From an uncultured virus (IMG/VR IMGVR_UViG_3300042326_001281) (Duplodnaviria > Heunggongvirae > Uroviricota > Caudoviricetes), in IMG/VR virus record IMGVR_UViG_3300042326_001281: a stretch of 20,000 nucleotides of DNA. One strand, given 5' to 3'. The notes below the pieces were generated by a model. That model saw only the letters and a list, made by a program, of their open reading frames with translations, did not search any database and was not told where the DNA came from. Each line of letters begins with the position of its first letter. The first letter of the stretch is position 1. This document shows positions 3,242 through 17,279 of this stretch, in pieces. A program made the translations under genes and the position numbers.

Positions 3242-3749
3242 AATAGTTCTAGCAGAACGCTGGGAGAAAATTAATAGAGTTGTTGATGTGTTCTTAAAAG
3301 GAACAACTAATCCTGCTGCTATTGCTAAAACTACTGGATTTAAAAGAACGGAAGTTCAAGAGTATTTAAATGAGTGGCGTTCAGTCATTCAAAGTGATAG
3401 ACAGGTTCAGATGCGTGCTAGAGAGGCTTTAGCAGGAGCCGACAGACACTACTCTATGCTTATTGAAGAGGGTTGGGATGTAATTAATCAGGCGGGTCTG
3501 ACTTCAGACCTTGCTAAAAAAACAGCGGGAATCAAGATCGTAGCAGACATTCAGCAAAAGCAAATTGATATGTTGCAAAAAGCAGGACTAATTGAAGATA
3601 GCGAGATTGCTCAACAGATCATTGAAACAGAGCGTAAGCAAGAAGTTCTTGTTAAAATTCTTAAAGAAGTGGTGGCGGACTGTGATCATTGTAAGCGTGA
3701 TGTTGCAAAAAGACTTGAAGAAGTAACTGGGAAGGCAGAAGGATTCTAG
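3231..3749 (+). CDS. Putative terminase small subunit / HTH protein
   Basis: N-terminal HTH-like 'PAAIAKTTGFKRTEVQEYL', helical body, C-terminal CDHC; stop overlaps the TerL start. Confidence 0.55.
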   Translation: MSTEIVLAERWEKINRVVDVFLKGTTNPAAIAKTTGFKRTEVQEYLNEWRSVIQSDRQVQMRAREALAGADRHYSMLIEEGWDVINQAGLTSDLAKKTAGIKIVADIQQKQIDMLQKAGLIEDSEIAQQIIETERKQEVLVKILKEVVADCDHCKRDVAKRLEEVTGKAEGF

Positions 3750-5524
3750 TGTTTGATGATTTTTTATCCGCGCTAGAAGAGGATGAGTTTGATGAACATC
3801 CAGTAGCAATTGAAGAATTTGTTACAAATGAACAATATCTACACCTACCTCCATTATCTTCCTATCAATATCATTCTATTAAAGCAATGACTCAAATCTA
3901 TAAAAAAGAAACTCTCATTAAATTATATGGTGAAGAAGAAGGTGTTAAGAGATACCGACAAACTTGTAATGAAGTTATCCTGCAATTAGGAAAGGGTTCT
4001 GGAAAAGATTACCTTTCTACTATTTCTGTTACCTATCTTGTATATTTATTACTATGCCTTAAAGATCCCGCCAAGTATTTTGGTAAACCTCCAGGTGATG
4101 CAATTGATATTATTAATATTGCTATTAACTCAGAGCAGGCAAAAAATGTTTTCTTCAAGGGTTTCCGTAAAAGAATTGAGGACTCTCCTTGGTTTACTGG
4201 AAAGTTTAGTATTACCGCCCAAAGCGTAACATTTGATAAATCTATTACTTGTCACTCAGGGCATTCAGAGAGAGAGTCTTGGGAGGGATATAATGTTATC
4301 TGTGTGATCCTTGATGAGATTTCTGGGTTTAGTACAGTATCTACCAGTGGAAATGAACAGTCAAAGACTGGTCAGGCGATCTATGACATGTATAGGGCCT
4401 CTGTAGATTCCCGATTCCCTGACTTTGGAAAGGTCGTGTTATTATCTTTTCCACGATATAAAAATGATTTTATTCAACAACGATATGATGCAGTTGTGGC
4501 GGACAAAGAAGTTATCATTAAGTCATATACCTTTAAACTAGATGATGAACTAGACGATGTGAAAGAAAATGAATTCTCTATTGAGTGGGAAGAAGATCAA
4601 ATTAATGCATACAAATATCCAAAAGTTTTTGCATTAAAAAGACCAACTTGGGACATTAATCCTACCCGATCGATCAACGATTTTAAGATTGCATTCTATA
4701 ATAATCCAGTAGATGCTTTAGGTAGATTTGCCTGTATGCCACCAGACGCTGTTGATGCATTCTTTAAATCAAAAGAAAAGATTATGACATGCTTTAATCA
4801 ACCAATGAATGGCGTGGACGATGATGGAAGGTTTAAAGACTGGTTCCTTCCACAAGAGGGTAAAGAATACTACATACATGTTGACCTAGCCCAAAAACAT
4901 GACCATTGTGCAGTATCTATGGCGCACGTTGACAGATGGGTGCATATTAAAAGTTTTATGCAGCATAATGTAGTTAGCCCAGTAGTAGTTGTTGATTGTG
5001 TGAGATGGTGGACTCCAACGTCAGATAAATCTGTAGACTTTTCTGAAGTAAAACAATTCATTGTTGACCTAAGATCAAGAGGGTTTAATATTAGAAAAGT
5101 AACATTTGATAGATGGAACTCTCACGACATTATGACAGAATTAAAAATGATTGGTATTGACGCAGAGACTCTTTCCGTAGCCAAAAAACACTATGACGAT
5201 ATGGCTATGTTAGTTGGAGAAGAAAGAATTATTGGGCCAAGCATTAAACTTCTTACAGATGAATTACTTCAATTAAGAATTTTAAGGGATAAAGTAGACC
5301 ACCCCAGAAAGGGAAGTAAAGACCTCTCTGACGCAGTATGCGGAGCAATATATAACGCAATATCAAATACTAGAAAGCAGTCAGAAGAAGCAGAGATTGA
5401 AGTTCATACATATAAACAATTTATTAGAGACCAGCAGCGGGAGGAAGCAGAAAAAAATGTTATTCGACCCCCAGCACAAAACTCTAATATCGATGACTAC
5501 ATAAATAGCATTGGAATGATTTAA
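3749..5524 (+). CDS. terL: Terminase large subunit
   Basis: Walker A 'GKGSGKD', Walker B 'VILDE', nuclease motifs 'HVDLAQKHD', 'FDRWNS', 'KDLSDA'; 591 aa. Confidence 0.9.
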   Translation: MFDDFLSALEEDEFDEHPVAIEEFVTNEQYLHLPPLSSYQYHSIKAMTQIYKKETLIKLYGEEEGVKRYRQTCNEVILQLGKGSGKDYLSTISVTYLVYLLLCLKDPAKYFGKPPGDAIDIINIAINSEQAKNVFFKGFRKRIEDSPWFTGKFSITAQSVTFDKSITCHSGHSERESWEGYNVICVILDEISGFSTVSTSGNEQSKTGQAIYDMYRASVDSRFPDFGKVVLLSFPRYKNDFIQQRYDAVVADKEVIIKSYTFKLDDELDDVKENEFSIEWEEDQINAYKYPKVFALKRPTWDINPTRSINDFKIAFYNNPVDALGRFACMPPDAVDAFFKSKEKIMTCFNQPMNGVDDDGRFKDWFLPQEGKEYYIHVDLAQKHDHCAVSMAHVDRWVHIKSFMQHNVVSPVVVVDCVRWWTPTSDKSVDFSEVKQFIVDLRSRGFNIRKVTFDRWNSHDIMTELKMIGIDAETLSVAKKHYDDMAMLVGEERIIGPSIKLLTDELLQLRILRDKVDHPRKGSKDLSDAVCGAIYNAISNTRKQSEEAEIEVHTYKQFIRDQQREEAEKNVIRPPAQNSNIDDYINSIGMI

Positions 5525-5875
5525 ATGGATATGAATGAAGAACTCATAGAAATTTTTCTAGAAAAAGGGTACATTGAAGTAGTAGGATATAATCCTGTAG
5601 GAGATCCAGTATATAAAATTACTAAAAAGTTTTATGAAGAACAAAAAGAACTCTTAGCCGATATGAAAAAAATGGATTCAGACATTTTAAATTCTATATG
5701 GTTTAAGGGATACATAGATTTAAAGATGGATGAGGAAGGAAATGCTTTTGTTTATCTAACAGATAAATCAGAAGTCTGGGTTGACTCAGAAGATTTAACA
5801 GAAGATGAAAAATCAATGATGTATCTTATCTACAGCACAGGAGCATATTATGGTGGAGAGTGGACAGAACTCTAG
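5525..5875 (+). CDS. Hypothetical acidic protein (possibly two wHTH-like repeats)
   Basis: 116 aa; internal similarity 'LEKGYIEV..' / 'WFKGYIDL..'. Confidence 0.65.
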   Translation: MDMNEELIEIFLEKGYIEVVGYNPVGDPVYKITKKFYEEQKELLADMKKMDSDILNSIWFKGYIDLKMDEEGNAFVYLTDKSEVWVDSEDLTEDEKSMMYLIYSTGAYYGGEWTEL

Positions 5876-6392
5876 GAACGTTATCGACTATTACAAGGAG
5901 TGGGAGAATGATCAAATTAAAGCAGATCTTGATACCCGCCGACTTCCATTTGTTGTAGGGTTTGAGAATATTTCTGGTGATTTTAATAAAGCATCTGGAA
6001 TTCGCAACAGTAACGCTTTTCTAGCAAAAGAGTCATGGATCATTGGTAATAAAAGATGGGATCGCCGTGGTGCAGTAGGTACTCAAAACTATGTTCATCT
6101 TAAATATGCTCCATCACTAGATCATATTTATCTTAATGAGCCTCATATTAGAGATATGCGGTGGGTAGCAGTGGATAATGTACCTGGGGCTATTCCAGTC
6201 ACTCAATACGAGTGGAGGCCAGACACCTTCATGATCTTTGGTGAAGAGGCGAGGGGCGTTAGCCCCATGGGTCTTGGAATGGCAGACGATGTTGTGATGA
6301 TCCCACAACTTGGAAGTGTTCGTAGTCTAAATGTTAGTGTCGCAAGTGGAATTATGATGTATGATTACGCGACAAAACTTGGAATGCTATAA
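5850..6392 (+). CDS. SpoU/TrmH-family (SPOUT) RNA 2'-O-methyltransferase
   Basis: 'ENISGDFNKASGIRNSNAF', 'IFGEEARG', 'IPQLGSVRSLNVSVASGI' are SPOUT motifs 1-3. Confidence 0.9.
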   Translation: MVESGQNSRNVIDYYKEWENDQIKADLDTRRLPFVVGFENISGDFNKASGIRNSNAFLAKESWIIGNKRWDRRGAVGTQNYVHLKYAPSLDHIYLNEPHIRDMRWVAVDNVPGAIPVTQYEWRPDTFMIFGEEARGVSPMGLGMADDVVMIPQLGSVRSLNVSVASGIMMYDYATKLGML

Positions 6393-6393
6393 T
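6385..6393 (+). promoter_or_regulatory. Extended -10 promoter TGCTATAAT
   Basis: Perfect TGn-TATAAT ending 5 nt before ATG 6399 (leaderless arrangement). Confidence 0.6.
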
Positions 6394-6398
6394 TGGTC

Positions 6399-6530
6399 AT
6401 GGAATGTAAATTTTGTGGTAGCCCCGCAGAATGGCGGGGAGAAAGAGATAACTTCAAAACAGAAGTTTGCCATAAACACTTCCATGCATATTATATTAGT
6501 TTTTGGATGTGGAGAAAAATAAATGGCTGA
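6399..6530 (+). CDS. 43 aa CxxC...CxxH zinc-finger microprotein (absent from ORF track)
   Basis: MECKFCGSPAEWRGERDNFKTEVCHKHFHAYYISFWMWRKING; overlaps the start of the next gene. Confidence 0.65.
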   Translation: MECKFCGSPAEWRGERDNFKTEVCHKHFHAYYISFWMWRKING

Positions 6531-6882
6531 AACGTACACACCCACTGATGCTATGTCATCAAATGCGAAACGAGCATTGAAGTGGAAAGAAGAAGGCAAG
6601 GCTAAAGGCGCAGGAACATCTGTTGGATGGACACGGGCGGGACAACTGGCAAGAAAGGAATCCCTTTCATTAGACACAGTTAAGAGAATGTACTCTTATT
6701 TCTCTAGACATGAAGTAGATAAGCAGGGAAAGGGATTCTCTCCTGGTGAAGAAGGCTATCCATCAAATGGAAAGATCATGTGGGATGCCTGGGGCGGTGA
6801 CGCAGGATATTCCTGGTCAAGAGCAATCGTTAATAGAATGAAGAAGATGTGGGAAGGCACCCCGTTTGATATAACTAAATAG
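6523..6882 (+). CDS. Conserved phage protein; domain recalled as commonly fused to head-morphogenesis/prohead proteins
   Basis: 'GTSVGWTRAGQLA...LSLDTVKRMYSYFSRHEVDK...GYPSNGKIMWDAWGGDAG'; SD GGAG. Confidence 0.7.
   Translation: MAETYTPTDAMSSNAKRALKWKEEGKAKGAGTSVGWTRAGQLARKESLSLDTVKRMYSYFSRHEVDKQGKGFSPGEEGYPSNGKIMWDAWGGDAGYSWSRAIVNRMKKMWEGTPFDITK
6867..6875 (+). promoter_or_regulatory. Extended -10 promoter TGATATAAC for the RNA cluster
   Basis: TGn-TATAAC about 10 nt upstream of the structured RNA. Confidence 0.45.
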
Positions 6883-6885
6883 ACT

Positions 6886-6987
6886 CCGATGTGCCAGCAA
6901 TGCCGAGTTACGCGGTTGATACCAGCATGAAGTTAGTCAAACGTGCAGAAAACCTTGGGATGGTGTAGTTACCCGTTGGCACATCGG
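6886..6987 (+). ncRNA. Candidate structured ncRNA of unknown family
   Basis: CCGATGTGCCAGC (6886-6898) pairs with GTTGGCACATCGG (6975-6987): 13 bp with one G-U; internal hairpins possible; GC-rich, intergenic, 3 nt upstream of tRNA-Gln. Confidence 0.6.
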
Positions 6988-6990
6988 TTA

Positions 6991-7061
6991 TGGAGAATGG
7001 TGTAATGGCAGCACAAATGTCTTTGGAACATTTAGTTTAGGTTCGACCCCTGATTCTCCAG
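6991..7061 (+). tRNA. tRNA-Gln (anticodon UUG), CCA not encoded
   Basis: Acceptor TGGAGAA/TTCTCCA; anticodon arm AATGT-CTTTGGA-ACATT; T arm TTAGG-TTCGACC-CCTGA. Confidence 0.93.
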
Positions 7062-7073
7062 CGTTTTAAGCAG

Positions 7074-7145
<72 letters not shown>

Positions 7146-7152
7146 CGTGGAA

Positions 7153-7320
7153 ATGCATAGCGATGATGAATGCCAAAAATATTGGCGAGATAGATTCTCA
7201 GATCAAATAGAAGAATGTATCGAAACTCCTTTTGCAGAAGATTATTCTTCAGAAGCAGAGTGGTTTAGACAGGGGTTAAGATATGCAATGATGATTATTC
7301 GATGGGACTATGATGAGTGA
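7153..7320 (+). CDS. 55 aa acidic hypothetical protein (absent from ORF track)
   Basis: MHSDDECQKYWRDRFSDQIEECIETPFAEDYSSEAEWFRQGLRYAMMIIRWDYDE; no clear SD. Confidence 0.5.
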   Translation: MHSDDECQKYWRDRFSDQIEECIETPFAEDYSSEAEWFRQGLRYAMMIIRWDYDE

Positions 7321-8026: not shown

Positions 8027-8180
8027 TGAAATACTTTACTTTTTACTGTTTAGTAAAAACTGATAACGGCTATGCATTAAAGCCACATATTAATATGTAC
8101 AATAACATGCTAGAAATAATTAATTGGTAATTATTTTTATGCTGTAGAATAAATAGATGTTGCCGCCCAAGGAGGTCAAT

Positions 8181-8801
8181 ATGACGACAAAAAACCAAAT
8201 TGGTTTGGCAGTAGATTGGATTGCCGCTGCAGTTTTGGCAATTACTTTTATTGCTGCACCAAGCATGGCGTATGCTAAGTCTGCGCCCTTGGCGGAAGGT
8301 ATAGGAAACTTTGCCACCGCTGACGCATTAGAAAGAAAGGCAGTAACAGATAGAAACTGGTCGCTGCCGTCTAAATGTAATGATAAGCAGGCAAAGATTC
8401 TGTTTAAAGCAGGTTTTAATAGACCTGGGATGCTTAGAGGAGCCTGGGCAATTACCTGGCGTGAATCAAAGCATCAGGCACTTGATGAGTCAAGTTTATG
8501 GTATTCAGGTGCCCTGGGTACTTGGCAAATTCAAACGAGTGCTTGGTCAGGAAGATCCTGGTGGTCTAGAGATAATATGCTAGACAAGAAAAAACAATCA
8601 GAAATTGTTAGAAAGCACTTTTTGAATGATGGAATGCATAATTGGGGATACGGTTATTCGTTTAAGAATGATTCATGGTACGAGAATGCAGGAATGTATT
8701 ACTCCCTATGGGGATCTAGCCTGACTTATTCATGGGTTATTGCACCCTTTAATACTGGATGGTCGCTGTTTCCTGGTAAATGCACTCCAAAAAAGGTATA
8801 A
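8181..8801 (+). CDS. Secreted lysozyme-like / SLT transglycosylase-like protein
   Basis: SD AAGGAGG favours ATG 8181; signal peptide ending AYA; 'AWAITWRES', 'ALGTWQI' resemble the catalytic E-S and GxxQ motifs. Confidence 0.65.
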   Translation: MTTKNQIGLAVDWIAAAVLAITFIAAPSMAYAKSAPLAEGIGNFATADALERKAVTDRNWSLPSKCNDKQAKILFKAGFNRPGMLRGAWAITWRESKHQALDESSLWYSGALGTWQIQTSAWSGRSWWSRDNMLDKKKQSEIVRKHFLNDGMHNWGYGYSFKNDSWYENAGMYYSLWGSSLTYSWVIAPFNTGWSLFPGKCTPKKV

Positions 8802-8814: not shown

Positions 8815-8865
8815 GGTGTGGCGGGGGAAACACAATAAAATGTGCGGCAACACCCCCGCCACATC
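8815..8865 (+). other. Strong stem-loop (structured leader, small RNA or terminator)
   Basis: GGTGTGGCGGGGG (8815-8827) / CCCCCGCCACATC (8853-8865), 13 bp with one G-U; inner CACA-ATAAAA-TGTG; no U-tract. Confidence 0.65.
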
Positions 8866-8879
8866 ACAACTAATGGAGA

Positions 8880-10040
8880 ATGATGAGAATAGGATTACTA
8901 TCTACTGACTGGGGAGATCATTTAGAAGGTCAGCCTGGAGGTTGTACTAATGTCAGAATGATGATTCCAGGGCTACACCTAAATAAAATAGGTCATGAAG
9001 TTATGGTAGGTGAAATTGGCTGGAAAGATGGAGAAGGTTTTGTCGCAGTAAAACCTATCGAACGGTTAAAAGCAAAGCATAGATCAGTAATCAAAGAATA
9101 CTCATGGGCTTTTGATAAACTAGATGTAGTAGTTCTAAAACTTTTTATGCATAAAGATGCAGTTAAGTATATTGAACTTGCTAAGTCGTATGGTCAAACT
9201 GTAATTATTGACACAGACGATCACTTTGAGAAACTTCCAGAGGATAATTTAGCATTTATTACTACCGATCCTATTAGAAATCCAGATAATAATAGAGAGC
9301 ATCTAATATCAACATATTCAGTTGCAGACGGAATTATTGCTAGCACTAAATTCTTAGAGCAAAGAATGCTTCAGTATAACGATACAGTATATAGAGTAAA
9401 AAACTCTTTAGACCCACAAACTTTTATTTATAGATTAGATACTGCTGGATTTAAGCCTACTATTGGTTGGGTAGGCATTATGATGTGGCGAGTAGATGAT
9501 TTAAAGCATGTCTCTGGACCCATTAAAACCACTATTGAAAAGTATGGTTTAAATTTTCATCATACGGGTATTATGCTAGATAGACCAAAATGGATCGCGG
9601 AAGCCCTCAATATCGACCCTGAAAGAGTCACTGGGTTCACTGGCTCAAGGCCAGAGTATTATGCTAATGTTTTTATGCCAATAGATATTGGCATAGTACC
9701 GTTGAATCCGAATCAGTTTAATGAGGCTAAGAGTAATCTAAAAGGTCTTGAATATGCTCTATCTGGCATACCCTTTGTTGCATCAGATACCCAAGAGTAT
9801 AGAGACTTAGCAGATATGGGGGTTGGAAGAATTGCTAAGTCAAATAAAGATTGGCTTAAACATCTAAAGCAGTTGCTTGATCCAGAAGTTAGAGAAGAGG
9901 AAAGGCAGAACAACTTTAAAATTGCCACACAGAACTTTAATATTTTTACAGTCAAATATCAGTGGTCTGAGGCAATAGAACTTATTCATATGAAAGCACA
10001 AGCCGAAAAAAATAAGAAAATTTCTCTTCTTAAGGTATAA
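8880..10040 (+). CDS. Glycosyltransferase, GT-B fold (GT4-like)
   Basis: 'IIDTDD', 'TIGWVG', 'DIGIVPL...FNEAKSNLKGLEYALSGIPFVAS'. Confidence 0.85.
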   Translation: MMRIGLLSTDWGDHLEGQPGGCTNVRMMIPGLHLNKIGHEVMVGEIGWKDGEGFVAVKPIERLKAKHRSVIKEYSWAFDKLDVVVLKLFMHKDAVKYIELAKSYGQTVIIDTDDHFEKLPEDNLAFITTDPIRNPDNNREHLISTYSVADGIIASTKFLEQRMLQYNDTVYRVKNSLDPQTFIYRLDTAGFKPTIGWVGIMMWRVDDLKHVSGPIKTTIEKYGLNFHHTGIMLDRPKWIAEALNIDPERVTGFTGSRPEYYANVFMPIDIGIVPLNPNQFNEAKSNLKGLEYALSGIPFVASDTQEYRDLADMGVGRIAKSNKDWLKHLKQLLDPEVREEERQNNFKIATQNFNIFTVKYQWSEAIELIHMKAQAEKNKKISLLKV

Positions 10041-10041
10041 T
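10034..10041 (+). promoter_or_regulatory. -10 element GGTATAAT
   Basis: Overlaps the GT stop codon; upstream of SD GGAGG and ATG 10072. Confidence 0.5.
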
Positions 10042-10071
10042 AGATTTAATAAATGCTTGGGAGGCTGATTT

Positions 10072-10551
10072 ATGCCGTATGATATTAGGCAAAACTATCG
10101 TGGTAAATCTGGATATTCTGTTGTAAGTCCAAGTGGGCGAGTGCATGGCACACACCCTTCTCGTAATGCTGCTATTCAGCAGCAACGTGCCCTGTATGCA
10201 GCAGAAGCACAGTCTAAAAAAATGACTAAAATGGAAGATTTATACGAGCAGTTGTCTGAACCAGAAAAAGAGTTCCATGACTCTTTAGTTGCTTTAGCAG
10301 AAAAGTATGGGTCTCTAGATGACGAAAGTACAGGCATTTGGATTGGATATGAACCTCCAGCCCAAAATAAAGATGCATCCATTGGGGTTATGTGTGGCAA
10401 CTGCTCTTTACATTTTGAAAAAGAGGATGGCGGTCTTGGATGTAAGATACTTTCTTATGAAATTCAAGAGATGGGTAAATGTAGATTGGCAGCCATTCCA
10501 CCAGGATATGTAAATGTAGATAAAAATCTTTGGGGCGGCAGATTTATATGA
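10072..10551 (+). CDS. Two-domain protein with C-terminal HiPIP-like 4-Cys domain
   Basis: 'CGNCSLHF...GCKILSYEIQEMGKCRLA' spacing resembles HiPIP; basic N-terminal 'MPY...HPSRNAAIQQQRALYAAE' domain. Confidence 0.6.
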   Translation: MPYDIRQNYRGKSGYSVVSPSGRVHGTHPSRNAAIQQQRALYAAEAQSKKMTKMEDLYEQLSEPEKEFHDSLVALAEKYGSLDDESTGIWIGYEPPAQNKDASIGVMCGNCSLHFEKEDGGLGCKILSYEIQEMGKCRLAAIPPGYVNVDKNLWGGRFI

Positions 10552-11042
10552 AATTTGTATCTCCAATAAATCCAGCAGATCTAACAAATGATCCTATCAT
10601 TAATAATGAAGGAGATATTTATTTTAATTCTTCTAGTTCAACGTTAAGGCTACACTCACAGGGTGTTTGGGTCACTCTATTAGATGAGAATAATCATTTA
10701 ACTCATACTGGAAATATAAGTAAATTAGTTGGAGATAATTCCACAGTATCTTTTTCTGCTACTTTAGATGAAAGTTTTGATAACTCTACAGTTTATGCAA
10801 AGTCTGCCTCCCCGTCTGAGTTTATTATTGGATACCATAAAAACTATCCATATAGACTAGGAACTCAAATTAGAATAGTAAGGGCAGGGAATGGTAGCAT
10901 TACCATAGAGCCACAGACAGCATCAGTAGTAATTCACACTCCTTCACTAAGTTACTTGACATTTATAGGCGATTCAATTAATATTATTAACATAGATGAA
11001 GACGAGTGGATTATAGATGGTCCCTTTAGAGATATTTATTAA
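10548..11042 (+). CDS. Putative virion structural / tail-fibre-like beta protein
   Basis: 'EGDIYFNSSSSTLRLH..GVW' and 'GTQIRIVRAGNGSITI...DEWIIDG' resemble phage fibre modules; ATGA overlap gives start 10548. Confidence 0.5.
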   Translation: MKFVSPINPADLTNDPIINNEGDIYFNSSSSTLRLHSQGVWVTLLDENNHLTHTGNISKLVGDNSTVSFSATLDESFDNSTVYAKSASPSEFIIGYHKNYPYRLGTQIRIVRAGNGSITIEPQTASVVIHTPSLSYLTFIGDSINIINIDEDEWIIDGPFRDIY

Positions 11043-11050
11043 GGAATAAA

Positions 11051-11419
11051 ATGAAAATTCTTGTTTACGGAAATACAAAGTTTTCCGATTATGATACTTT
11101 TACCCGAGCAGTGGTAGTTGCCATTGACCAAAATGTTTCTAATCAAGATAATAAATTAGAGATTTATACTGCGGGTCCATATAAAATTAATCAATTCGCT
11201 GCTGAATTCGTTAATAAGACTGAAGGATTCTTTAAGCAAAAAGGAATCAAGTCCAGGTTCTACCGAGTTTTAAAGAATGATGTTGCAGAAAACTTTGACA
11301 AGTATGATCTAGATAGTGTAGTATATTTATCAACGAAGAGTGATCGTTCAGAAATTTTTGATGTAGTAATTTCTGAGGCAGAGAATAATAATATTCCTGT
11401 AAGTATCTATAAGGTATAG
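11051..11419 (+). CDS. SLOG/YspA-like (DUF2493-like) protein, divergent
   Basis: 'MKILVYGNTKFSDYDTF' N-terminus and 'AENNNIPVSIY' C-terminus. Confidence 0.5.
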   Translation: MKILVYGNTKFSDYDTFTRAVVVAIDQNVSNQDNKLEIYTAGPYKINQFAAEFVNKTEGFFKQKGIKSRFYRVLKNDVAENFDKYDLDSVVYLSTKSDRSEIFDVVISEAENNNIPVSIYKV

Positions 11420-11430
11420 GAGAATCATGA

Positions 11431-11811
11431 GGATTATCAAAGGAGCAGGTCGCCGTATCTAAGCGCGACCAAGCATATCTTTCCGTAGCGTCTTATCTAG
11501 CATCACAGTCACAGTGTAGAATGAAGCATGGATCTGTTATTGTAAAGGGTGGAAGAGTTATTTCTACTGGAGTGAATAAGGAACGAAGTCATCCAAGAAT
11601 TGTTTCTAGCGAGCATATCAAGGATCACTGTTCAGTTCATGCTGAGATTGATGCTATCAAAAAGGCTAGAGATGTAAATGGTGCGACTATTTATATTGCT
11701 AGGGTAAATAAAAGAGGAGAGGCTAGGGATAGCCGCCCATGCAAGAGATGTTTTGAAGTTATTAAAAGCAATGGAATCAAAAAAGTTATCTATACAATGA
11801 GTGAGGAATAA
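11431..11811 (+). CDS. Cytidine/dCMP deaminase-family Zn protein (start unresolved)
   Basis: 'HAE' and 'SRPCKRC' Zn motifs; frame open from 11431 with a plausible helix SKRDQAYLSVASYLASQSQC before ATG 11521. Confidence 0.85.
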   Translation, partial: GLSKEQVAVSKRDQAYLSVASYLASQSQCRMKHGSVIVKGGRVISTGVNKERSHPRIVSSEHIKDHCSVHAEIDAIKKARDVNGATIYIARVNKRGEARDSRPCKRCFEVIKSNGIKKVIYTMSEE

Positions 11812-12029
11812 TGTCACAGACATTTGTAAATTACGAAGCCGCGCATGAGTTAGTAGATTCACACAAGAATCTATTCTGGGACGGTTGGGTTATTGTAGAC
11901 TGGAAGCCACTTAAGGACGGCTTCTATAAGAAAAATGGCATGTTCCGTCATGGAACTTGGGGAGTTGCCAAGAGATACTTCCCAGGTAGTAATGGATGGA
12001 AAGTGCCAAGTAAATATGTGGGTAACTGA
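11811..12029 (+). CDS. Hypothetical Trp-rich phage protein
   Basis: 72 aa; 'LFWDGWVIV', 'NGWKVP'; SD GAGG; TAATG coupling. Confidence 0.75.
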   Translation: MSQTFVNYEAAHELVDSHKNLFWDGWVIVDWKPLKDGFYKKNGMFRHGTWGVAKRYFPGSNGWKVPSKYVGN

Positions 12030-12300
12030 AGCATTATGTGCAGGCACAGACACTGAGGACTATTTTGATAAATATGAGTTGGATCAAGGTCTAGCAAAAG
12101 AAATAGATAGACGGTGTATGTCTTGTCCAGTAATTAAAGAATGCTTTGACTATGGGGTTCAAACGGAATCCTTTGGTGTTTGGGGCGGCGTATTCCTAAA
12201 TGATGGTAAACTAGACAATGTAAGAAATTCACATAAGACCCAAGATGTTTGGGCTAGAATACTTGGTCTGGTATCTGAAGGAGAAGACATTGAAATATGA
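12016..12300 (+). CDS. whiB: WhiB-family Fe-S transcription factor
   Basis: W...ALC...CMSCPVIKEC...FGVWGG: four Cys plus G(V/I)WGG; start at ATG 12016. Confidence 0.92.
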   Translation: MWVTEALCAGTDTEDYFDKYELDQGLAKEIDRRCMSCPVIKECFDYGVQTESFGVWGGVFLNDGKLDNVRNSHKTQDVWARILGLVSEGEDIEI

Positions 12301-12538
12301 CCCACTAGTCTTTAAAATTCTTAAAGAAAATAAACCTCCGTATAATGTCATTATTGATATTGTAGAAATGCCAAATTTTCTTGCCTTAAGAGTTTATGAG
12401 AATGAAATCATGGCTCTATCAAACGAAAAACAAATGATTGTTATGGAACATCTCTTCAAGTTGCGGGGGATAGTAGAACAATTTGGATATGTTTGTGACT
12501 TTCAGGGGGTTCCTGGCGATCCGCCAAGGAGTGTCTAA
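12290..12538 (+). CDS. Hypothetical phage protein
   Basis: SD AAGGAG (12278-12283) favours TTG 12290. Confidence 0.65.
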   Translation: MKYDPLVFKILKENKPPYNVIIDIVEMPNFLALRVYENEIMALSNEKQMIVMEHLFKLRGIVEQFGYVCDFQGVPGDPPRSV

Positions 12539-12708
12539 TGGGACTAATTTGGATAGAATCAGAAGCATGTTGGGGAGAAGTAGTACAAAAACATGCCCTT
12601 TATTCAAAAGTAAAATTTTTTAAAGACGGTCATTACCATGAAGAAATTATAGAAAATGATGACCTTACTGAATTAAGAGAACTTGGGATTGATTATGAAT
12701 CTGACTGA
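12538..12708 (+). CDS. 56 aa hypothetical protein (absent from ORF track)
   Basis: MGLIWIESEACWGEVVQKHALYSKVKFFKDGHYHEEIIENDDLTELRELGIDYESD; SD AAGGAG; TAATG coupling. Confidence 0.7.
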   Translation: MGLIWIESEACWGEVVQKHALYSKVKFFKDGHYHEEIIENDDLTELRELGIDYESD

Positions 12709-12916
12709 AGCCTTGGGTTCCATGGTGTTCTTATTTAAAAAAAGATCTATAGAAGAAATAAAGCAACCACAGGAATATTACTGCTCTAATATTGACTGCA
12801 CAAATGAGATTGCAGACTTTAATCAGTTGTGCCCCCTGCTGACTGAAGAGGCATATAATAATCTTGCAGACTTCTACTGCATAGACTGCATTATTGAGGA
12901 GAAAACAAATGTATGA
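12695..12916 (+). CDS. Small Cys-rich hypothetical protein
   Basis: CSNIDC...CIDC; start uncertain. Confidence 0.55.
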   Translation: MNLTEALGSMVFLFKKRSIEEIKQPQEYYCSNIDCTNEIADFNQLCPLLTEEAYNNLADFYCIDCIIEEKTNV

Positions 12917-13685
12917 TCTTTCAGCCTATGTACACGTTCCAGTTTGTGAACTAGCGGTAAAAGAGGAAGAATCTTTTAATACTTTTAAGAGAGATAGTTA
13001 TTTTACAACTATTTTAGAGCATACGTTAGAAGAGTTTTCTAAACAATTCCTGTCACGGGCTCTTAGTGAATACGCAGATAAAATTAATCTTATTAATTGG
13101 GAAAAGGTGGCGGAGAATGATTTAATAGGATCTCCAGTATTAACAGAATATCCAGAAATTCCTGGTGATAATAAATTATTTTCACCGTCAACCATTGCTT
13201 ATGTCTTTAAAGCACTAGATATTTTACAACATATGAAGGACAGTTCTTTAAATAATATAAATATTTTAGAGATCGGTGCTGGCTATGGCGGTCAATGTAA
13301 GATGATTCTAGACTTTGCCCCGCTATTTGATATCAGTATCAAGTCATATATTCTAGTAGATCTTTACTGGCCTAACGAATTACAGAAAAAATATTTAGAC
13401 TCTCTAGGGTATACCAAAAATATTAAATATATTTCATATGAAAAACTTTCTGACAACCAAGAAGTGCTTCCAGAATTTAATTATTTAATTAGTGTATACG
13501 CATTAGGCGAATTTATGCCAGATGTTCAGCAGTTTTATATTGACAAAATGATTAATTTTCCATATCATTATTTAGTATGGAACACTCCAAATATACATGA
13601 ATCATTCCTTTTATCAGACATAGAAGAGGAGCGTCCAAGAACTGGGCCATATAATGTGGTTATTAAAAGTAAGGTTAAAATATGA
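12909..13685 (+). CDS. SAM-dependent methyltransferase, putative sugar O-methyltransferase
   Basis: '[10 protein letters not shown]', 'YILVDL', 'ISVYALGE'; SD GAGGAG favours ATG 12909; heads the sugar operon. Confidence 0.75.
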
Positions 13686-14689
13686 AGACAGCATTGATTA
13701 CTGGCATTACTGGTCAGGACGGATCATACCTTGCAGAGTTGCTGCTAGAAAAAGATTATGTTGTTCATGGAATTAAAAGAAGGTCATCATCTATCAATAC
13801 ACATAGAGTAGATCACCTTTACGACCATCCAAACTTTAAACTACATTATGGAGATCTTACAGATTCTCTATCTACTGTGAAATTAATTGGTGAGATTCAG
13901 CCAGACGAAATTTATAATCTTGGCGCTCAAAGTCATGTCCAGGTGTCGTTTGAAACACCAGAGTCTACTGCTAATTCCGATGCCCTAGGTACACTTAGGA
14001 TGCTTGAAGGAATTAGAATGAACTACTTAGATCCAGTTACAAAGTTTTATCAGGCGGCTACGTCAGAATTATATGGATTAGTGCAAGAGGTCCCACAGTC
14101 TGAAACTACCCCCTTCTACCCTAGATCTCCATATGGAGTAGCAAAACTTTATGCTTATTGGATTACTAAGAATTATCGTGAAGCCTATGATATGTTTGCT
14201 TGTAATGGAATTTTGTTTAACCATGAGTCGCCACGCAGAGGCGAGACATTTGTTACCAGAAAGATCGTCTTAGGTCTAAGAGATATTCAGTCGGGTAAGG
14301 CAGATGTTCTTAGACTAGGCAACCTAAATGCATTAAGAGACTGGGGCCATGCCAAAGATTTTGTTAGGGCGATGTGGCTAATGATGCAACAAGATTCGCC
14401 CGACGACTATGTTATTGCTACAGGTGAAGAGTACACAGTCAAGGACTTTGTTGAAAGGTGTGCCCCCTACTTTGGTATGTCTATTGAGTGGCAGGGTGAA
14501 GGATTTAATGAAATAGGAATCGACTCTAAAACTGGTAGAACCGTAGTAGTTGTAGACAAAAAATATATTCGTCCAGCAGAAGTAGATCGACTTCTTGGGG
14601 ATGCTTCTAAAGCACAGAAAGAATTGGGCTGGAGCCCAGAGTACACCTTTGACGATCTAGTAAAGGATATGTGCATTAATGGACTATAA
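13682..14689 (+). CDS. gmd: GDP-mannose 4,6-dehydratase
   Basis: '[16 protein letters not shown]', 'NLGAQSHV', '[13 protein letters not shown]', '[16 protein letters not shown]', 'RDWGHAKD'. Confidence 0.97.
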
Positions 14690-15614
14690 CTCATCTATTT
14701 ATGTAGCAGGTCATAATGGTTTAGTAGGATCTTCTTTAGTTAGAAGATTAAAAATGGTTGGCTATCATAATATTATTACAGCAGATCGTTCTAGATTAGA
14801 TTTGCGTAACCAAATGAGTGTAAAAAGATTCTTTGCTGTTCAAAAACCAGAGTATGTTTTTTTAGCAGCCGCAAAAGTTGGAGGAATTACATATAATCAA
14901 AGTTCTCCAGCGGACTTTATTTATGATAATCTTGCTATACAGAATAACGTTATCCATTCTTCATATGAAAATAAAGTAAAGAAACTTATGTTCCTTGGCT
15001 CCGCGTGTATATATCCTAAAGTTACCCCACAGCCAATAAAAGAAGAATACCTATTGACAGCACCATTAGAAGAAACAAATGAAGGCTATGCATTAGCAAA
15101 AATTGCAGGGCTAAAAATGTGTCAAAGGTACAAAGAGCAATATGGTTTTAACGCTATTTCAGCCATGCCAGCAAACTTATATGGAATCAATGATAATTTT
15201 AATATAAATCAGTGCCATGTTATACCAGCCATGATCTATAAATTTCATGAGGCGCTGTTAAATAATTCAAAGCAAGTTACTTTGTTTGGGGACGGTAGTC
15301 CCACCAGGGAATTCCTACATGTAGATGATCTTTCAGATGCATTAATATTCCTTATGAATAATTATGAAGATTCTTCTCATATTAATATTGGCTCTGGAAA
15401 AGAATACTCTATTAAAGAACTGGCAGATATTATTTCTCGCACAGTTGGATGGAACGGTAATATTATTTGGGACAAAGATAAGCCAAATGGTACTCCACGA
15501 AGAAAACTTGATATATCTAAGTTAAATCATTTAGGGTGGTCTTCATCGATAGATTTAGAAAATGGGATAAACGATACATACGGATGGTTCTTAGAAAATA
15601 ATGACTATTCATAA
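14679..15614 (+). CDS. fcl: GDP-L-fucose synthase
   Basis: '[10 protein letters not shown]', 'LAAAKVGGI', 'LGSACIYPK', 'YALAKIAG', 'MPANLYG', 'HVIPA', 'REFLHVDDL'. Confidence 0.96.
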
Positions 15615-16692
15615 GAACATTCCAGTCTACGCTCCATCCATTACTGAACTAGAGAAAAAATATGTTAATGAATGTTTAGAGTCTTCCTGGATATCCTCTC
15701 GCGGCCCGAATGTTGATATGTTTGAACAATTATTTACAGAAAAAATTGGTGTGGAGTATGGAACAACAGTTTCAAATGGTACTGTTGCTTTACATTTAGC
15801 ACTATTAAGTTTAGGCATTGGTCCAGGAGATGAAGTAATTGTTCCAACGTTAACCTATATCGCTCCAGTAAATGCTATAAAGTATGTCGGAGCCACACCA
15901 GTATTTGTAGATTCCTTGTATGATTCATGGCAGATGAACCCAGAAGATATTACTAGAAAGATTACTGATAGAACAAAGGCTATTCTTGCTGTTCATTTAT
16001 ATGGTCATCCATGCGACTTAGATTTAATTAATAAAATTTGTAAAGATAATAATCTATTTCTTGTAGAGGATTGTGCAGAAGCATTTGGGACTATGTTTAG
16101 AAATAAACATGTTGGCACCTTTGGGGACATAGCGACATTTAGTTTTTTTGGAAACAAGACAATAACCACTGGTGAAGGCGGCATGGTGGTTTCAAACAAT
16201 AAGGATTTAATAGACATTTGCTTTCATTTAAAGGGGCAGGGCTTGGCGGAAGGAAAACAATACTGGCACGATGCCATAGGGTATAACTACCGTTTGACCA
16301 ATGTTGCATGTGCTATTGGTATCGCCCAACTACAAAGATCTGATTATTTAATTAACAGGAAGTTAGAAATAGCATCTTTATACAGAGAAGGTTTCTATAA
16401 TACTGGTTATGAATTTCATAGTGAGGCTCCTAATACTAGACACAGTTATTGGATGTGTAGTATATTGGGATCAGAATATAAAGATCGTGATAATCTAATG
16501 AATTATCTAAGTGCAAATAGAATAGAAACTAGGCCAGTATTCTATCCTATTCATACAATGCCTATGTACAATACTCAACAGAGTTTTATGGTTGCAGAAG
16601 ATATTTCTCGCAGAGGATTAAATCTACCTAGTTATCCAGATTTAAGTGATGATGAAGTTAAATATGTTATAGAGAAAGTGTTGTCCCACTAA
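15601..16692 (+). CDS. per: DegT/DnrJ/EryC1/StrS aminotransferase, GDP-perosamine synthase-like
   Basis: 'WISSRG', 'NGTVALHLAL', 'EDCAEAFG', PLP-lysine motif 'SFFGNKTITTGEGG', 'ETRPVFYP'; adjacent to gmd. Confidence 0.85.
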   Translation: MTIHKNIPVYAPSITELEKKYVNECLESSWISSRGPNVDMFEQLFTEKIGVEYGTTVSNGTVALHLALLSLGIGPGDEVIVPTLTYIAPVNAIKYVGATPVFVDSLYDSWQMNPEDITRKITDRTKAILAVHLYGHPCDLDLINKICKDNNLFLVEDCAEAFGTMFRNKHVGTFGDIATFSFFGNKTITTGEGGMVVSNNKDLIDICFHLKGQGLAEGKQYWHDAIGYNYRLTNVACAIGIAQLQRSDYLINRKLEIASLYREGFYNTGYEFHSEAPNTRHSYWMCSILGSEYKDRDNLMNYLSANRIETRPVFYPIHTMPMYNTQQSFMVAEDISRRGLNLPSYPDLSDDEVKYVIEKVLSH

Positions 16693-17279
16693 TGAATTTA
16701 TTTAATTCTGGATTTTATACAGAAAAAGACTTGGTTGACGCAGGATTTAAAAACATTGGAAATAATATTTTAATTGATAAAAACTGCACAATTATCGGAC
16801 TACATAATATATCTATTGGGTCTAATGTAAGAATAGATGCGTATACAACTATAACAGCCTCAGAGGGCGGGGATTTAAGCATAGGATCAAATATTCATAT
16901 CGCAGGATATTGTCTGTTGGCTGCATCAGGTGGTATAATTATGGAAGATTTTTCTGCTATATCTCACGGCACAAAAATATATTCCGCTTCTGATGATTAT
17001 TCTGGCGGGTATTTAACAAATGCTGTGATCCCAGATAAGTATAAAAATGTTAAACGTGGACTGGTAACATTAAAAAAGCATTCTTTAATAGGATCTAGTT
17101 CAGTTTTATTACCAGGAATAGTAGTCGGTGAAGGGACCACTGTAGGAGCCATGTCTTTAGTATCTAAAAATTTAGATGATTGGTCGGTGTATGCAGGAAT
17201 CCCTGCTAAAAAAATAAAAGACAGGCCAAGAGATTTGTTAGGACTTGAACAAGAATATGTGAGGGAGAGCGGTGTCTGA
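16692..17279 (+). CDS. Hexapeptide-repeat (left-handed beta-helix) sugar acyltransferase
   Basis: Repeats IGNNIL/IGSNVR/IGSNIH, 'SASDDYSG', 'YAGIPAKKIKDR'; VioB/WcaF-like. Confidence 0.85.
   Translation: MNLFNSGFYTEKDLVDAGFKNIGNNILIDKNCTIIGLHNISIGSNVRIDAYTTITASEGGDLSIGSNIHIAGYCLLAASGGIIMEDFSAISHGTKIYSASDDYSGGYLTNAVIPDKYKNVKRGLVTLKKHSLIGSSSVLLPGIVVGEGTTVGAMSLVSKNLDDWSVYAGIPAKKIKDRPRDLLGLEQEYVRESGV

What the first reader, a model, noticed from the sequence alone, without database searches (positions are those of the whole stretch)
6867..6990. Unannotated ~100 nt structured RNA at the head of the tRNA cluster
Seen: a 13 bp terminal helix (6886-6898 / 6975-6987, one G-U) closes a GC-rich intergenic segment with three plausible inner hairpins (GCCG..CGGT, GCATG..CGTGC, GGG..CCC), giving a cloverleaf-like junction. 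It has no TTCRA T-loop, so it is not a tRNA. It contains a short internal repeat (AGTTACGCGGTTG / AGTTACCCGTTG), lies about 10 nt after an extended -10 (TGATATAAC) and ends 3 nt before tRNA-Gln, so RNase P cleavage of the tRNA would release its 3' end. Established: phage tRNA clusters harbour other ncRNAs (Y-like RNAs, ribozymes, GOLLD/ROOL). I cannot match this one to a family. Inference: a new phage ncRNA, possibly a tRNA mimic/decoy or a substrate of the neighbouring SPOUT enzyme.
Basis: partly seen in the sequence, partly recalled or inferred. Interest (0 to 1): 0.72.

Follow-up and report, generated by a model that had tools for sequence, protein, structure and literature searches.

The report
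New folded RNA heading phage tRNAs
The roughly 100 bases between a phage gene and its tRNA genes encode a conserved folded RNA of an undescribed family whose job is unknown, one more of the poorly understood small RNAs that phages keep beside their tRNA genes.

Summary
Window 6886-6987 (+) is a single-copy, conserved structured RNA. A 13-bp terminal helix (P1) closes a three-way junction made of a long P2-P3 arm and a short P4 hairpin.

I found 25 distinct variants, 79-103 nt long, in uncultured freshwater phage contigs. The host is probably actinobacterial, because the window encodes WhiB. In P1, 6 of 13 pairs show compensatory changes, 99.7% of cells are paired, and every wobble pair is G-U on the + strand. 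A block of about 21 nt (CUU-R-GGAUGGU-NNN-GUUAC) is nearly invariant, while the neighbouring TrmH-like SpoU protein falls to about 50% identity.

The element always starts 2-3 nt after the stop codon of a 119-aa ORF. It usually ends 3-5 nt before the first tRNA of an array.

There is no Rfam 15 match at E<=10. It is not a tRNA, it is not Y-RNA-like (no Ro gene), and it is not homologous to T4 rnaC or rnaD.

It occurs only in phages that carry the SpoU gene, but 16 of 43 decidable SpoU lineages lack it.

Function is untested. My best guess is a stable small RNA whose 3' end is made by RNase P cleavage of the adjoining tRNA and which is recognised through its invariant junction and hairpin.

The parts
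6886..6898 (+). P1, 5' strand of the 13-bp terminal helix
   Evidence: In 23 aligned variants, 6 of 13 pairs change on both sides and 99.7% of cells are paired. RNAalifold predicts the same helix on its own.
6975..6987 (+). P1, 3' strand
   Evidence: Same calls. All wobble pairs are G-U or U-G on the + strand (3 cells). The model scores 52-126 bits on + and 14-21 bits on -.
6900..6907 (+). P2, 5' strand (AUGCCGAG), variable in sequence
   Evidence: Pairs with 6954-6961. Column 23/81 is C-G in 9 sequences, U-A in 8 and other in 6; the helix is 77.6% paired on the MAFFT alignment. Present in the single-sequence MFE folds and in RNAalifold of the 16 long forms.
6907..6946 (+). P3 arm: base helix GUUACG/CGUGC plus a distal extension (UUGAU/GUCAA and tip). 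The extension is missing in the short forms.
   Evidence: (helices 3 and 4: 95-96% paired, no double changes). Short forms keep only a 4-5 bp hairpin between CAGU and GUGCAG.
6947..6953 (+). A-rich linker (AGAAAAC) between P3 and the 3' strand of P2
   Evidence: Variable in length and sequence. In the short forms it pairs with a U-rich 5' stretch: UUU/AAA, UUAU/AUAA, UCCA/UGGA, AUUCA/UGAAU, GAAGUC/GAUUUC.
6954..6975 (+). Nearly invariant block CUU-R-GGAUGGU-NNN-GUUAC-Y-(C/A)-G. It comprises the 3' strand of P2, the whole P4 hairpin and the junction.
   Evidence: Invariant columns listed. The block is kept in variants found without using it as bait (through the 119-aa ORF, the 5' 22-mer, and SpoU).
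6962..6973 (+). P4 hairpin GGUG-UAGU-UACC
   Evidence: (96.7% paired). The fourth pair is G-U in 19 sequences, A-U in 1 and unpaired in 3.
6523..6882 (+). 119-aa ORF (phrog_2859) whose stop codon lies 3 nt before P1
   Evidence: It is upstream of the element in all 25 variants. It is an all-alpha model with no known fold.
5850..6392 (+). SpoU-family 2'-O-methyltransferase, nearest to TrmH (tRNA Gm18)
   Evidence: Pfam PF00588, E 4e-19. NCBIfam TrmH, 56.6 bits, below the equivalog cut-off. PDB 1v2x and 7edc. Present in every element-bearing locus with enough flank.
6991..7146 (+). tRNA-Gln (6991-7062) and tRNA-Asn (7074-7146), directly downstream
6867..6875 (+). Not supported as a conserved promoter.

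Best explanation
Window 6886-6987 is the gene of a small structured RNA of a family not yet described. I put the odds that it is a real, selected RNA structure on the + strand at about 0.93.

Shown: the anatomy. A 13-bp helix P1 closes a tight three-way junction. One arm (P2 plus P3) is variable in sequence and length. The other is a 4-bp hairpin P4. P4, the 3' strand of P2 and the junction residues together form a nearly invariant block of about 21 nt.

Inferred: how it works, at about 0.45. The RNA is transcribed with the upstream TerL-SpoU-119-aa-ORF operon. Its 3' end is made when RNase P cuts the 5' end of the tRNA that starts 3-5 nt after P1. In the relatives that have a promoter in between, a U-run after P1 makes the 3' end instead. 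The long blunt P1 then protects the molecule from exonucleases, so that it accumulates as a discrete species of about 100 nt. It acts in trans, with the invariant P4 hairpin and junction as the surface read by a protein partner. That partner could be the co-inherited TrmH-like methyltransferase or a host factor. In this it would parallel the stable RNAs of the phage T4 tRNA cluster.
For: Structure. P1 has 6 of 13 pairs with changes on both sides, and column 6/109 shows four pair types (GC 15, CG 6, AU 1, UA 1). Over the whole structure 93.5% of cells are paired, against 31-38% when partners are slid. The covariation score is 0.136 against 0.073 shuffled, reached by 0 of 500 shuffles. RNAalifold finds P1 and P4 unaided. 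MFE folds of 25 distinct variants give mostly the same three-way junction.

Strand. All wobble pairs are G-U on +. The model scores far lower on -.

Selection. The invariant block persists while SpoU falls to 48-52% identity. The element is present in both deep SpoU clades.

Gene-like behaviour. There is one copy in each of 5 of 5 large records, including a complete 96-kb genome. The position is fixed: after the stop of the 119-aa ORF in all variants, with a tRNA 3-5 nt downstream in the window and in L008, L009, L081, L085, L128, L138, L143, L146, L147, L148, L156 and L313.

Not tied to the downstream transcript. In the L107/L139 type a TTGACAC-17-TATAAT promoter lies between the element and tRNA-Gln, and P1 is followed by UUUUAU. 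The element therefore belongs with the upstream unit or stands alone.

Weak expression hint. A 188-nt contig of a freshwater metatranscriptome covers 6898-6991 and runs on into a tRNA-Gln variant (record 18).

Precedent. T4 rnaC and rnaD lie in the tRNA cluster and are still called RNAs of unknown function (PMC9697503, passages). ROOL and GOLLD lie near phage tRNA islands (PMC12286853, passages).
Against: - No read-level evidence for a discrete species or for its ends. The only RNA data are assembled contigs of libraries that may contain DNA.
- No partner is identified. No Ro/TROVE or RtcB gene in 0 of 5 records, and the 119-aa protein has no recognisable fold.
- The element is dispensable in nature. 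16 of 43 decidable distinct SpoU lineages lack it. In two contigs (L165, L167) the canonical form is replaced by an Endonuclease VII ORF plus a rearranged RNA.
- In L010 and L318 an ORF follows, not a tRNA, so RNase P cannot make the 3' end there.
- P2 and P3 rest on compatible one-sided changes and one compensatory column only. On the mixed alignment RNAalifold does not recover them.
- The sequences are related, so the shuffle control overstates significance, as the tool itself warns.
Confidence: 0.45

Rival explanations
1. Cis-acting end-forming and stabilising module. After RNase P removes the tRNA array, the 13-bp helix with a 3-5 nt tail becomes the 3' end of the upstream TerL-SpoU-119-aa mRNA and shields it from 3' exonucleases. 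The element would have no trans function.
For: Constant position 2-3 nt after the stop codon. A tRNA 3-5 nt after P1 in most variants. A U-run after P1 in the L107 type. In relatives without the element the same ORF is followed at once by a strong TTGACA-17-TATAAT promoter, so this is an operon boundary.
Against: A protective hairpin needs no invariant 21-nt block, no three-way junction and no fixed helix length. In L010 and L318 no tRNA or U-run follows. 69 loci with the ORF but without the element manage without it.
Confidence: 0.22
2. Dedicated substrate, decoy or regulator of the neighbouring TrmH-like SpoU methyltransferase. The enzyme would bind the invariant hairpin and junction and perhaps 2'-O-methylate it.
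For: The element was found only where the SpoU gene is present: 27 distinct SpoU sequences with it, and no element-bearing locus with enough upstream flank lacks SpoU. None of the 69 loci that have the 119-aa ORF but no SpoU carries it. In the L081 type the ORF between them is only 53% identical while SpoU (93%) and the RNA (91%) stay alike.
Against: 16 SpoU lineages have no element. On the SpoU tree the pattern needs only 3-4 changes and fits common descent with losses. The element has no D-arm-like loop with GG, the TrmH target (read; the nature of the target is from recalled knowledge). In phages without the element SpoU still sits beside tRNA genes, so tRNAs are the obvious substrate.
Confidence: 0.12
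3. A new class of self-cleaving ribozyme that cuts the tRNA array free from the upstream mRNA.
For: Its size, its junction with conserved core residues and variable stems, and its place between a coding region and tRNAs in phage DNA resemble small ribozymes. AUAG-R-C just 5' of P1 is conserved in nearly all variants.
Against: No match to any ribozyme family of Rfam 15 at E<=10. The conserved 5' letters include the stop codon, which explains them more simply. No cleavage data exist.
Confidence: 0.06
4. Riboswitch-like or attenuator element that controls read-through into the tRNA array.
For: A variable P1, a conserved junction and a variable distal arm are typical of aptamers. In the L107 type P1 is followed by a U-run.
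Against: There is no terminator-like site here in the window (UUAUGG follows P1). In the L107 type the tRNA has its own promoter downstream of the element. No known aptamer class matches.
Confidence: 0.04
5. A DNA-level feature (a protein-bound inverted repeat, a homing site or a miniature transposon) or a decayed tRNA gene, not a functional RNA.
For: Inverted repeats can co-vary if a dimeric protein reads both arms. An Endonuclease VII gene has landed exactly here in L165 and L167. The short word ATGGTGTA is shared with the start of the neighbouring tRNA-Gln.
Against: The wobble pairs are strand-specific: they would be A-C mismatches on the other strand, and in DNA they have no meaning. There is one copy per genome in 5 of 5 records and no target-site duplication in the flanks. 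No tRNA score at E<=10. The inner helices also fold.
Confidence: 0.04

Closest known systems
Phage T4 small stable RNAs rnaC (species 1, 139 nt) and rnaD (species 2, 119 nt)
   Same: They are encoded on the tRNA strand at the edge of a phage tRNA cluster and have no known function (PMC9697503, passages). A homing endonuclease gene (segB) sits in the T4 cluster, as an Endonuclease VII gene does in L165/L167.
   Different: No homology: the model R1, run with filters off, gives no match on rnaC or rnaD. rnaC folds with a tRNA-type T-arm, which the element lacks. The T4 RNAs lie at the distal end of the cluster, the element at its head.
ROOL and GOLLD RNAs (Rfam)
   Same: Phage and prophage RNAs of unknown function, often next to tRNA islands (PMC12286853, passages).
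   Different: They are several hundred nt long and ornate; the element is 79-103 nt with four helices. No Rfam match.
Bacterial and phage Y-RNA-like YrlA (RF02553)
   Same: The 5' and 3' ends pair in a long stem. Some are phage-encoded near tRNAs (PMC4201824, abstract and listing only).
   Different: The element has no tRNA-like T-arm module and no YrlA match; the only weak YrlA hits lie on tRNA genes. No Ro/TROVE gene in 0 of 5 records.
tRNA-punctuated 3'-end formation (RNase P cutting a downstream tRNA or tRNA-like unit to make the 3' end of the upstream RNA)
   Same: A tRNA starts 3-5 nt after P1 in most variants, so RNase P would leave a helix-capped 3' end. The cleavage itself is inferred.
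   Different: Here the upstream unit is itself a conserved junction RNA, and three variant types (L107/L139, L010, L318) lack the abutting tRNA.
Other helix-closed RNAs in phage tRNA arrays noted earlier in this scan (e1-5666318, e1-6145135, e1-6051770, e1-5824480, e1-5867249, e1-255712)
   Same: Uncatalogued folded RNAs, shut by a long terminal helix, beside phage tRNA genes; one is in a lake actinophage.
   Different: No sequence look-alike of this element is on record in the scan. Those notes are unchecked by me.

Membership tests
tRNA (RF00005) | Cloverleaf with a 7-bp acceptor stem, D-, anticodon- and T-arms; detected by ARAGORN or the Rfam model | tested here: not met
   ARAGORN calls only 6991-7062 and 7074-7146. 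There is no tRNA hit on the element at E<=10 in the window or at E<=1 in 9 homologous loci.
Y RNA-like YrlA (RF02553) | Match to the covariance model (Ro-binding stem plus tRNA-like module) | tested here: not met
   The only YrlA rows are 14.5 bits on tRNA-Asn 7093-7192 and 25.6 bits on tRNAs of L009. The gathering score is 69. No row falls on the element.
Y RNA-like YrlA (RF02553) | A Ro60/Rsr (TROVE) gene in the same genome | tested here: not met
   PF05731 found in 0 of 5 records (G000, G001, G002, G004, G005; one complete). The control rang in 2 of 14 genomes. Four of the five records are fragments.
T4 rnaC/rnaD-type stable RNAs | Homology of sequence or structure | tested here: not met
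   R1 with filters off over T4 68000-76000 gives no hit on rnaC or rnaD on their strand; the best hit elsewhere is 12.8 bits.
T4 rnaC/rnaD-type stable RNAs | Encoded on the tRNA strand next to a phage tRNA cluster | tested here: met
   for the element; for T4.
T4 rnaC/rnaD-type stable RNAs | Accumulates as a discrete stable RNA processed out of the tRNA precursor | not testable with these tools
   Only assembled contigs of RNA libraries could be laid. One covers 6898-6991 plus a tRNA.
Known self-cleaving ribozymes (hammerhead, twister, twister-sister, pistol, hatchet, HDV-like) in Rfam 15 | Match to a family model | tested here: not met
   No such row at E<=10 or E<=1.
Self-cleaving ribozyme (any, new) | Site-specific self-scission in vitro | not testable with these tools
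   No experiment was possible.
Riboswitch | A known aptamer class, and an expression platform (terminator or RBS sequestration) coupled to P1 | tested here: inconclusive
   No aptamer family matches. No terminator-like site at P1 in the window. A U-run after P1 occurs only in the L107/L139 type.
ROOL / GOLLD | Match to the Rfam model; length of several hundred nt | tested here: not met
   No match. The element is 79-103 nt.
Miniature inverted-repeat transposable element | Many copies per genome, terminal inverted repeats with a target-site duplication | tested here: not met
   One copy in each of 5 of 5 records and one in G000. The flanks show no duplication. The position is syntenic.

The most novel reading that the evidence does not exclude
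The element is the RNA half of a new phage ribonucleoprotein. The invariant P4 hairpin and junction would be bound, and possibly 2'-O-methylated, by the co-inherited TrmH-like SpoU enzyme, or would capture a host RNA-processing or defence factor. The phage would thereby control how its own tRNA array is matured or protected during infection. A bolder variant that I also cannot exclude is a new class of self-cleaving ribozyme that frees the tRNA array from the mRNA.
Probability: 0.15. Interest if true: 0.8.

Novelty: new variant of a known kind. Interest (0 to 1): 0.52.

Why it matters
Phages have been known for fifty years to keep small stable RNAs beside their tRNA genes, and none of these RNAs has a known function.

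This element is a compact case of 79-103 nt and four helices. It has a clean covarying closing helix, an invariant 21-nt core, natural short and long forms, and natural losses. It also has a fixed gene neighbourhood: a TrmH-like methyltransferase, a 119-aa ORF and a tRNA array.

That makes it a tractable model. The whole cassette is under 1.5 kb and could be expressed in a laboratory actinobacterium, so one could ask what such RNAs do and whether they are tied to tRNA modification. It would also add a family to the RNA catalogues for freshwater actinophages, which are abundant and almost unstudied.

Tried and rejected
- GenBank phages. blastn of the 108-nt element against 50,697 records found no match at E<=1. 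The 901-nt region matched only through its tRNAs, plus a 116-nt piece of the ORF.
- Bacterial and archaeal genomes. The 26-letter degenerate motif gave 0 matches, so no prophage copy and no host clue.
- A viral scan with wrong spacing (8 N between GTGCAG and YTTRGGATGG) returned 33 stretches, none of them real by the model. That scan was wasted.
- Chance matches that I dropped by eye because they lacked P1 and the ORF context: L108; L145, L149, L151, L153, L154, L155, L157, L159; L322.
- The 119-aa ORF as a possible RNA-binding partner:
  - no Pfam or NCBIfam family;
  - PDB sequence search had best E 0.5;
  - the Atlas returned only unnamed viral clusters;
  - the AlphaFold model is confident (pLDDT 89.6), but Foldseek gave nothing at E<=0.001 and VIA-align a best Z of 4.5.
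- No Ro/TROVE or RtcB gene in 5 records.
- Literature. No paper in the held library carries the 16-nt core. The two listed papers hold only the 13-letter piece and deal with unrelated human topics. The word searches turned up no description of this RNA. Supplements were not searched.
- Earlier scan notes by place and by sequence returned nothing.
- RNA libraries. All four runs are assembled contigs. Parts of the stretch without cover say nothing.
- Considered from memory and dropped without a test:
  - short words shared with the L11-binding region of 23S rRNA (a 5-mer and a 6-mer, about what chance gives);
  - a CsrA-type GGA site (the GGA lies in a helix, and the likely hosts are actinobacteria);
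  - a Shine-Dalgarno look-alike;
  - T-loop or anticodon-loop mimicry by P4 (the loop has the wrong size and letters);
  - phi29 pRNA and HK022 put RNA (no Rfam match, different context).
- I looked by eye for a tertiary pairing between the P4 loop variants and the linker and found no consistent partner.
Full report
WHAT IS THERE

The window is part of a 38-kb fragment of an uncultured phage genome. All its genes are on the + strand. In order they are a Cas4-like exonuclease, a RuvC-like resolvase, the large terminase (3749-5524), a 116-aa ORF, a SpoU-family methyltransferase (5850-6392), a 53-aa ORF and a 119-aa ORF (6523-6882, phrog_2859). Then come 108 non-coding bases, tRNA-Gln (6991-7062), tRNA-Asn (7074-7146), small ORFs, and a long block of sugar-nucleotide and glycosyltransferase genes.

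A WhiB gene at 11935-12300, together with DnaE, DnaB, primase and RecA in the rest of the record, points to an actinobacterial host.

The SpoU protein is nearest to TrmH, the tRNA Gm18 2'-O-methyltransferase, but scores below the equivalog cut-off.

THE OBSERVATION

6886-6898 pairs with 6975-6987 in 13 bp, one of them G-U. The + strand folds to -39.3 kcal/mol, z -3.0; the - strand to -31.7, z -2.0.

The stretch is not a tRNA and matches no Rfam 15 family at gathering score or at E<=10. The same holds for nine homologous loci at E<=1.

A perfect 11-nt inverted repeat within 150 nt occurs four times in this window. The helix alone therefore proves little, and the case rests on comparison.

RELATIVES

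GenBank phages hold nothing like it. Uncultured viral and metagenome contigs do.
- The first 22 nt occur exactly in 26 viral stretches.
- The 17-nt core GGATGGTGTAGTTACCC occurs in 31 viral stretches, one of them chance.
- A degenerate 24-mer occurs in 24 metagenome stretches: 16 real and 8 chance.
- Further members came in without any RNA bait: through the 119-aa ORF (L005-L011) and through SpoU (L185, L288, L294, L311-L319).

In all there are 25 distinct sequences: long forms of 99-103 nt and short forms of 79-91 nt. The short forms lack the distal part of one arm. Because part of the set was found by the 3' motif, its invariance is partly built in. It is, however, also kept in the members found by protein or by the 5' end, including L313 and L318, whose SpoU is only about 50% identical.

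STRUCTURE

On a MAFFT alignment of 23 variants with the structure I named, P1 is paired in 99.7% of cells. Six of its 13 pairs change on both sides, and one column shows GC, CG, AU and UA.

Over the whole structure 93.5% of cells are paired, against 31-38% when the partners are slid by 1-3 columns. The covariation score is 0.136 against 0.073 for shuffles, reached by 0 of 500. The tool warns that related sequences inflate this control.

RNAalifold, given no structure, returns the same P1 (6 pairs with compensatory changes) and P4. All wobble pairs are G-U on the + strand, and the covariance model R1 scores 52-126 bits on + against 14-21 on -. This is therefore an RNA of the + strand and not a DNA palindrome.

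The interior is less certain.
- P2: 6900-6907 with 6954-6961. One compensatory column (C-G in 9 sequences, U-A in 8, other in 6) and 77.6% paired cells. Some of the misses come from misaligned short forms and L128.
- P3: base 6907-6912/6942-6946, extension 6916-6920/6936-6940. Conserved, without double changes.
- P4: 6962-6965/6970-6973, GGUG-UAGU-UACC. Nearly invariant.

Single-sequence MFE folds of the 25 variants mostly give the same three-way junction. In the short forms the helix next to P3 has a different sequence in each lineage: UUU/AAA, UUAU/AUAA, UCCA/UGGA, AUUCA/UGAAU, GAAGUC/GAUUUC. RNAalifold on the 16 long forms recovers P1, P2, P3 and P4; on the 9 short forms it recovers P1, P3 and P4.

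Its internal repeat is missing from the short forms and from L128, so it is incidental.

CONTEXT

In every variant P1 begins 2-3 nt after the stop codon of a homologue of the 119-aa ORF, nearly always within the letters A-TAG-R-C.

Downstream, a tRNA starts 3-5 nt after P1 in the window and in L008, L009, L081, L085, L128, L138, L143, L146, L147, L148, L156 and L313. It is Gln, Asn or Pro, and heads arrays of 1 to 9 tRNAs. There are three exceptions:
- L107/L139: UUUUAU follows P1, then a TTGACAC-17-TATAAT promoter, then tRNA-Gln about 50 nt on.
- L010: an ORF follows.
- L318: an ORF follows.

There is one copy per genome in 5 of 5 large records, one of them a complete 96-kb genome with terminal repeats.

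It loses its TG in most relatives, is replaced altogether in others, and was not listed by the promoter scan. That scan does list a 10-of-12 match at 6467-6494, just before the ORF. I therefore take the element to be transcribed with the ORF.

LINK TO SpoU

Of 79 element-bearing loci, many from the same contigs, 76 show the SpoU gene upstream. The other three (L147, L156, L158) have too little flank.

Counted by distinct full-length SpoU DNA sequences, there are 51: 27 have the element downstream, 16 do not although at least 1000 nt of downstream DNA is held, and 8 cannot be judged (motif-plus-helix detection, agreeing with the model searches).

None of the 69 loci that have the ORF but no SpoU has the element.

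On a SpoU tree of 43 rows the element lies in both deep clades, and its distribution needs about 4 changes, with at least 3 forced. That indicates old presence with repeated loss. The element is thus found only in SpoU phages, but SpoU does not need it. Where the element is absent, SpoU still lies next to tRNA genes. Shared ancestry explains the link as well as function does.

In the L081 type the ORF between the two is only 53% identical in protein, while SpoU (93%) and the RNA (91%) stay close. This is a sign of recombination across the cassette.

A NATURAL VARIANT

In two nearly identical contigs (L165, L167; SpoU identical to that of an element-bearing contig) the canonical element is gone. 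After the ORF's stop come a P4-like hairpin, a 140-aa Endonuclease VII ORF (PF02945, E 3.5e-19), and a 100-nt stretch carrying the same modules in another order: CUUAGGAUGG..AGUUAC, then the P3 hairpin. This stretch is shut by a different 12-bp helix whose 5' strand lies inside the end of the endonuclease ORF (MFE -30.5, z -2.5). It ends 6 nt before tRNA-Asn. Only these two contigs carry it, so there is no covariation to test it.

EXPRESSION

Nine runs hold small parts of the region. The four I laid are assembled contigs. In one freshwater metatranscriptome a 188-nt contig covers 6898-6991 with one difference and continues into a tRNA-Gln variant. The library may contain DNA, and contigs cannot show ends. 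This is only a hint.

WHAT IT IS NOT

- Not a tRNA.
- Not YrlA: no model match on the element, and no Ro gene in 0 of 5 records.
- Not ROOL, GOLLD or a known ribozyme or riboswitch class.
- Not homologous to T4 rnaC or rnaD. R1 with filters off finds nothing on them, and rnaC has a tRNA-type T-arm that the element lacks.
- Not a transposon: single copy, syntenic, no flank duplication.

HOW IT MOST LIKELY WORKS

Shown: the fold, its strand, its conservation, its single copy and its fixed place at the boundary between an operon and the tRNA array.

Inferred:
- RNase P, by cutting the 5' end of the abutting tRNA, leaves the element with a 3-5 nt tail on a 13-bp helix.
- That end resists 3' exonucleases, so the RNA accumulates.
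- The invariant P4 and junction are a recognition surface for a protein.

I put about 0.45 on this trans-acting stable-RNA reading. The alternatives are:
- about 0.22 on a purely cis role as a protective 3' end of the upstream mRNA; the invariant core argues against this;
- about 0.12 on a specific tie to the SpoU enzyme;
- about 0.06 on a new ribozyme;
- about 0.04 on a riboswitch-like control;
- about 0.04 on a DNA-level feature or a dead tRNA.

NOVELTY

The kind is old and still unexplained: small folded RNAs of unknown function beside phage tRNA genes. It includes T4 rnaC and rnaD (PMC9697503, passages) and ROOL and GOLLD (PMC12286853, passages). Earlier notes of this scan list several other helix-closed RNAs in phage tRNA arrays (unchecked by me).

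This family itself appears to be undescribed. There is no Rfam match. No paper in the held library carries the 16-nt core, and the word searches found no description; supplements were not searched. It is a new, unrelated fold within a known category, so I score it as moderately interesting.

Noticed in passing
L165:2831-3374 (also L167, L321, L323): In two near-identical contigs the canonical element is replaced by three things: a P4-like hairpin; a 140-aa Endonuclease VII ORF (PF02945); and a 100-nt RNA-like stretch. That stretch carries the same modules in a different order, is closed by a different 12-bp helix that starts inside the end of the endonuclease ORF, and ends 6 nt before tRNA-Asn.
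   Followed up: partly
L012-L080 (just after the 119-aa ORF homologue): In many relatives without the element the ORF is followed at once by a TTGACA-17-TATAAT/TATACT-type promoter (for example L016, L020-L022, L024, L026, L031, L035, L048, L058) and a small ORF. The same spot is therefore an operon boundary across this large phage group.
   Followed up: no
It gives a confident all-alpha model (pLDDT 89.6) with no match in the PDB. In the L197 group it carries a long acidic C-terminal extension. In the L081 type it is only 53% identical while both flanks stay above 90%, which suggests allele swapping.
   Followed up: partly
window 8817-8863: A G+C-rich perfect 11-bp inverted repeat (TGTGGCGGGGG / CCCCCGCCACA, 25 nt apart) lies in the gap between ORFs 8157-8801 and 8880-10040. 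It may be a terminator or another small structure.
   Followed up: no
window 8880-20000 and G000 beyond (L240:141-3164, 6300-7223): A long phage-borne block of sugar-nucleotide genes: GDP-mannose 4,6-dehydratase, an epimerase/reductase, a DegT-type aminotransferase, a hexapeptide acyltransferase, and glycosyltransferases of families 1, 2, 10, 11 and 25. It would make and attach an N-acylated amino-deoxy sugar.
   Followed up: no
window 11935-12300; L239: WhiB-like regulator in the window. DnaE-type polymerase, DnaB, primase, RecA, a MazG-like protein and an HNH endonuclease in the rest of the record. This points to a large (about 100 kb) freshwater actinophage.
   Followed up: no
L313:2850-2934: A sub-threshold tmRNA-model hit (25.4 bits, gathering score 47) lies between tRNA genes of a relative's array. 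It may be a tRNA-like unit that ARAGORN did not call.
   Followed up: no
L275, L283, L293, L298-L301, L306, L307, L310, L320: In phages whose SpoU gene is not followed by the element, tRNA genes lie just upstream of SpoU. The methyltransferase gene keeps company with tRNA genes in all of these lineages.
   Followed up: partly
window 6658-6668 / 6728-6738: A perfect 11-nt inverted repeat (GAATCCCTTTC / GAAAGGGATTC) lies inside the coding region of the 119-aa ORF.
   Followed up: no
window 6655-6770: A 116-nt stretch of the 119-aa ORF is 74% identical to part of a gene annotated 'major capsid protein' in Roseobacter phage CRP-701 (H1).
   Followed up: no
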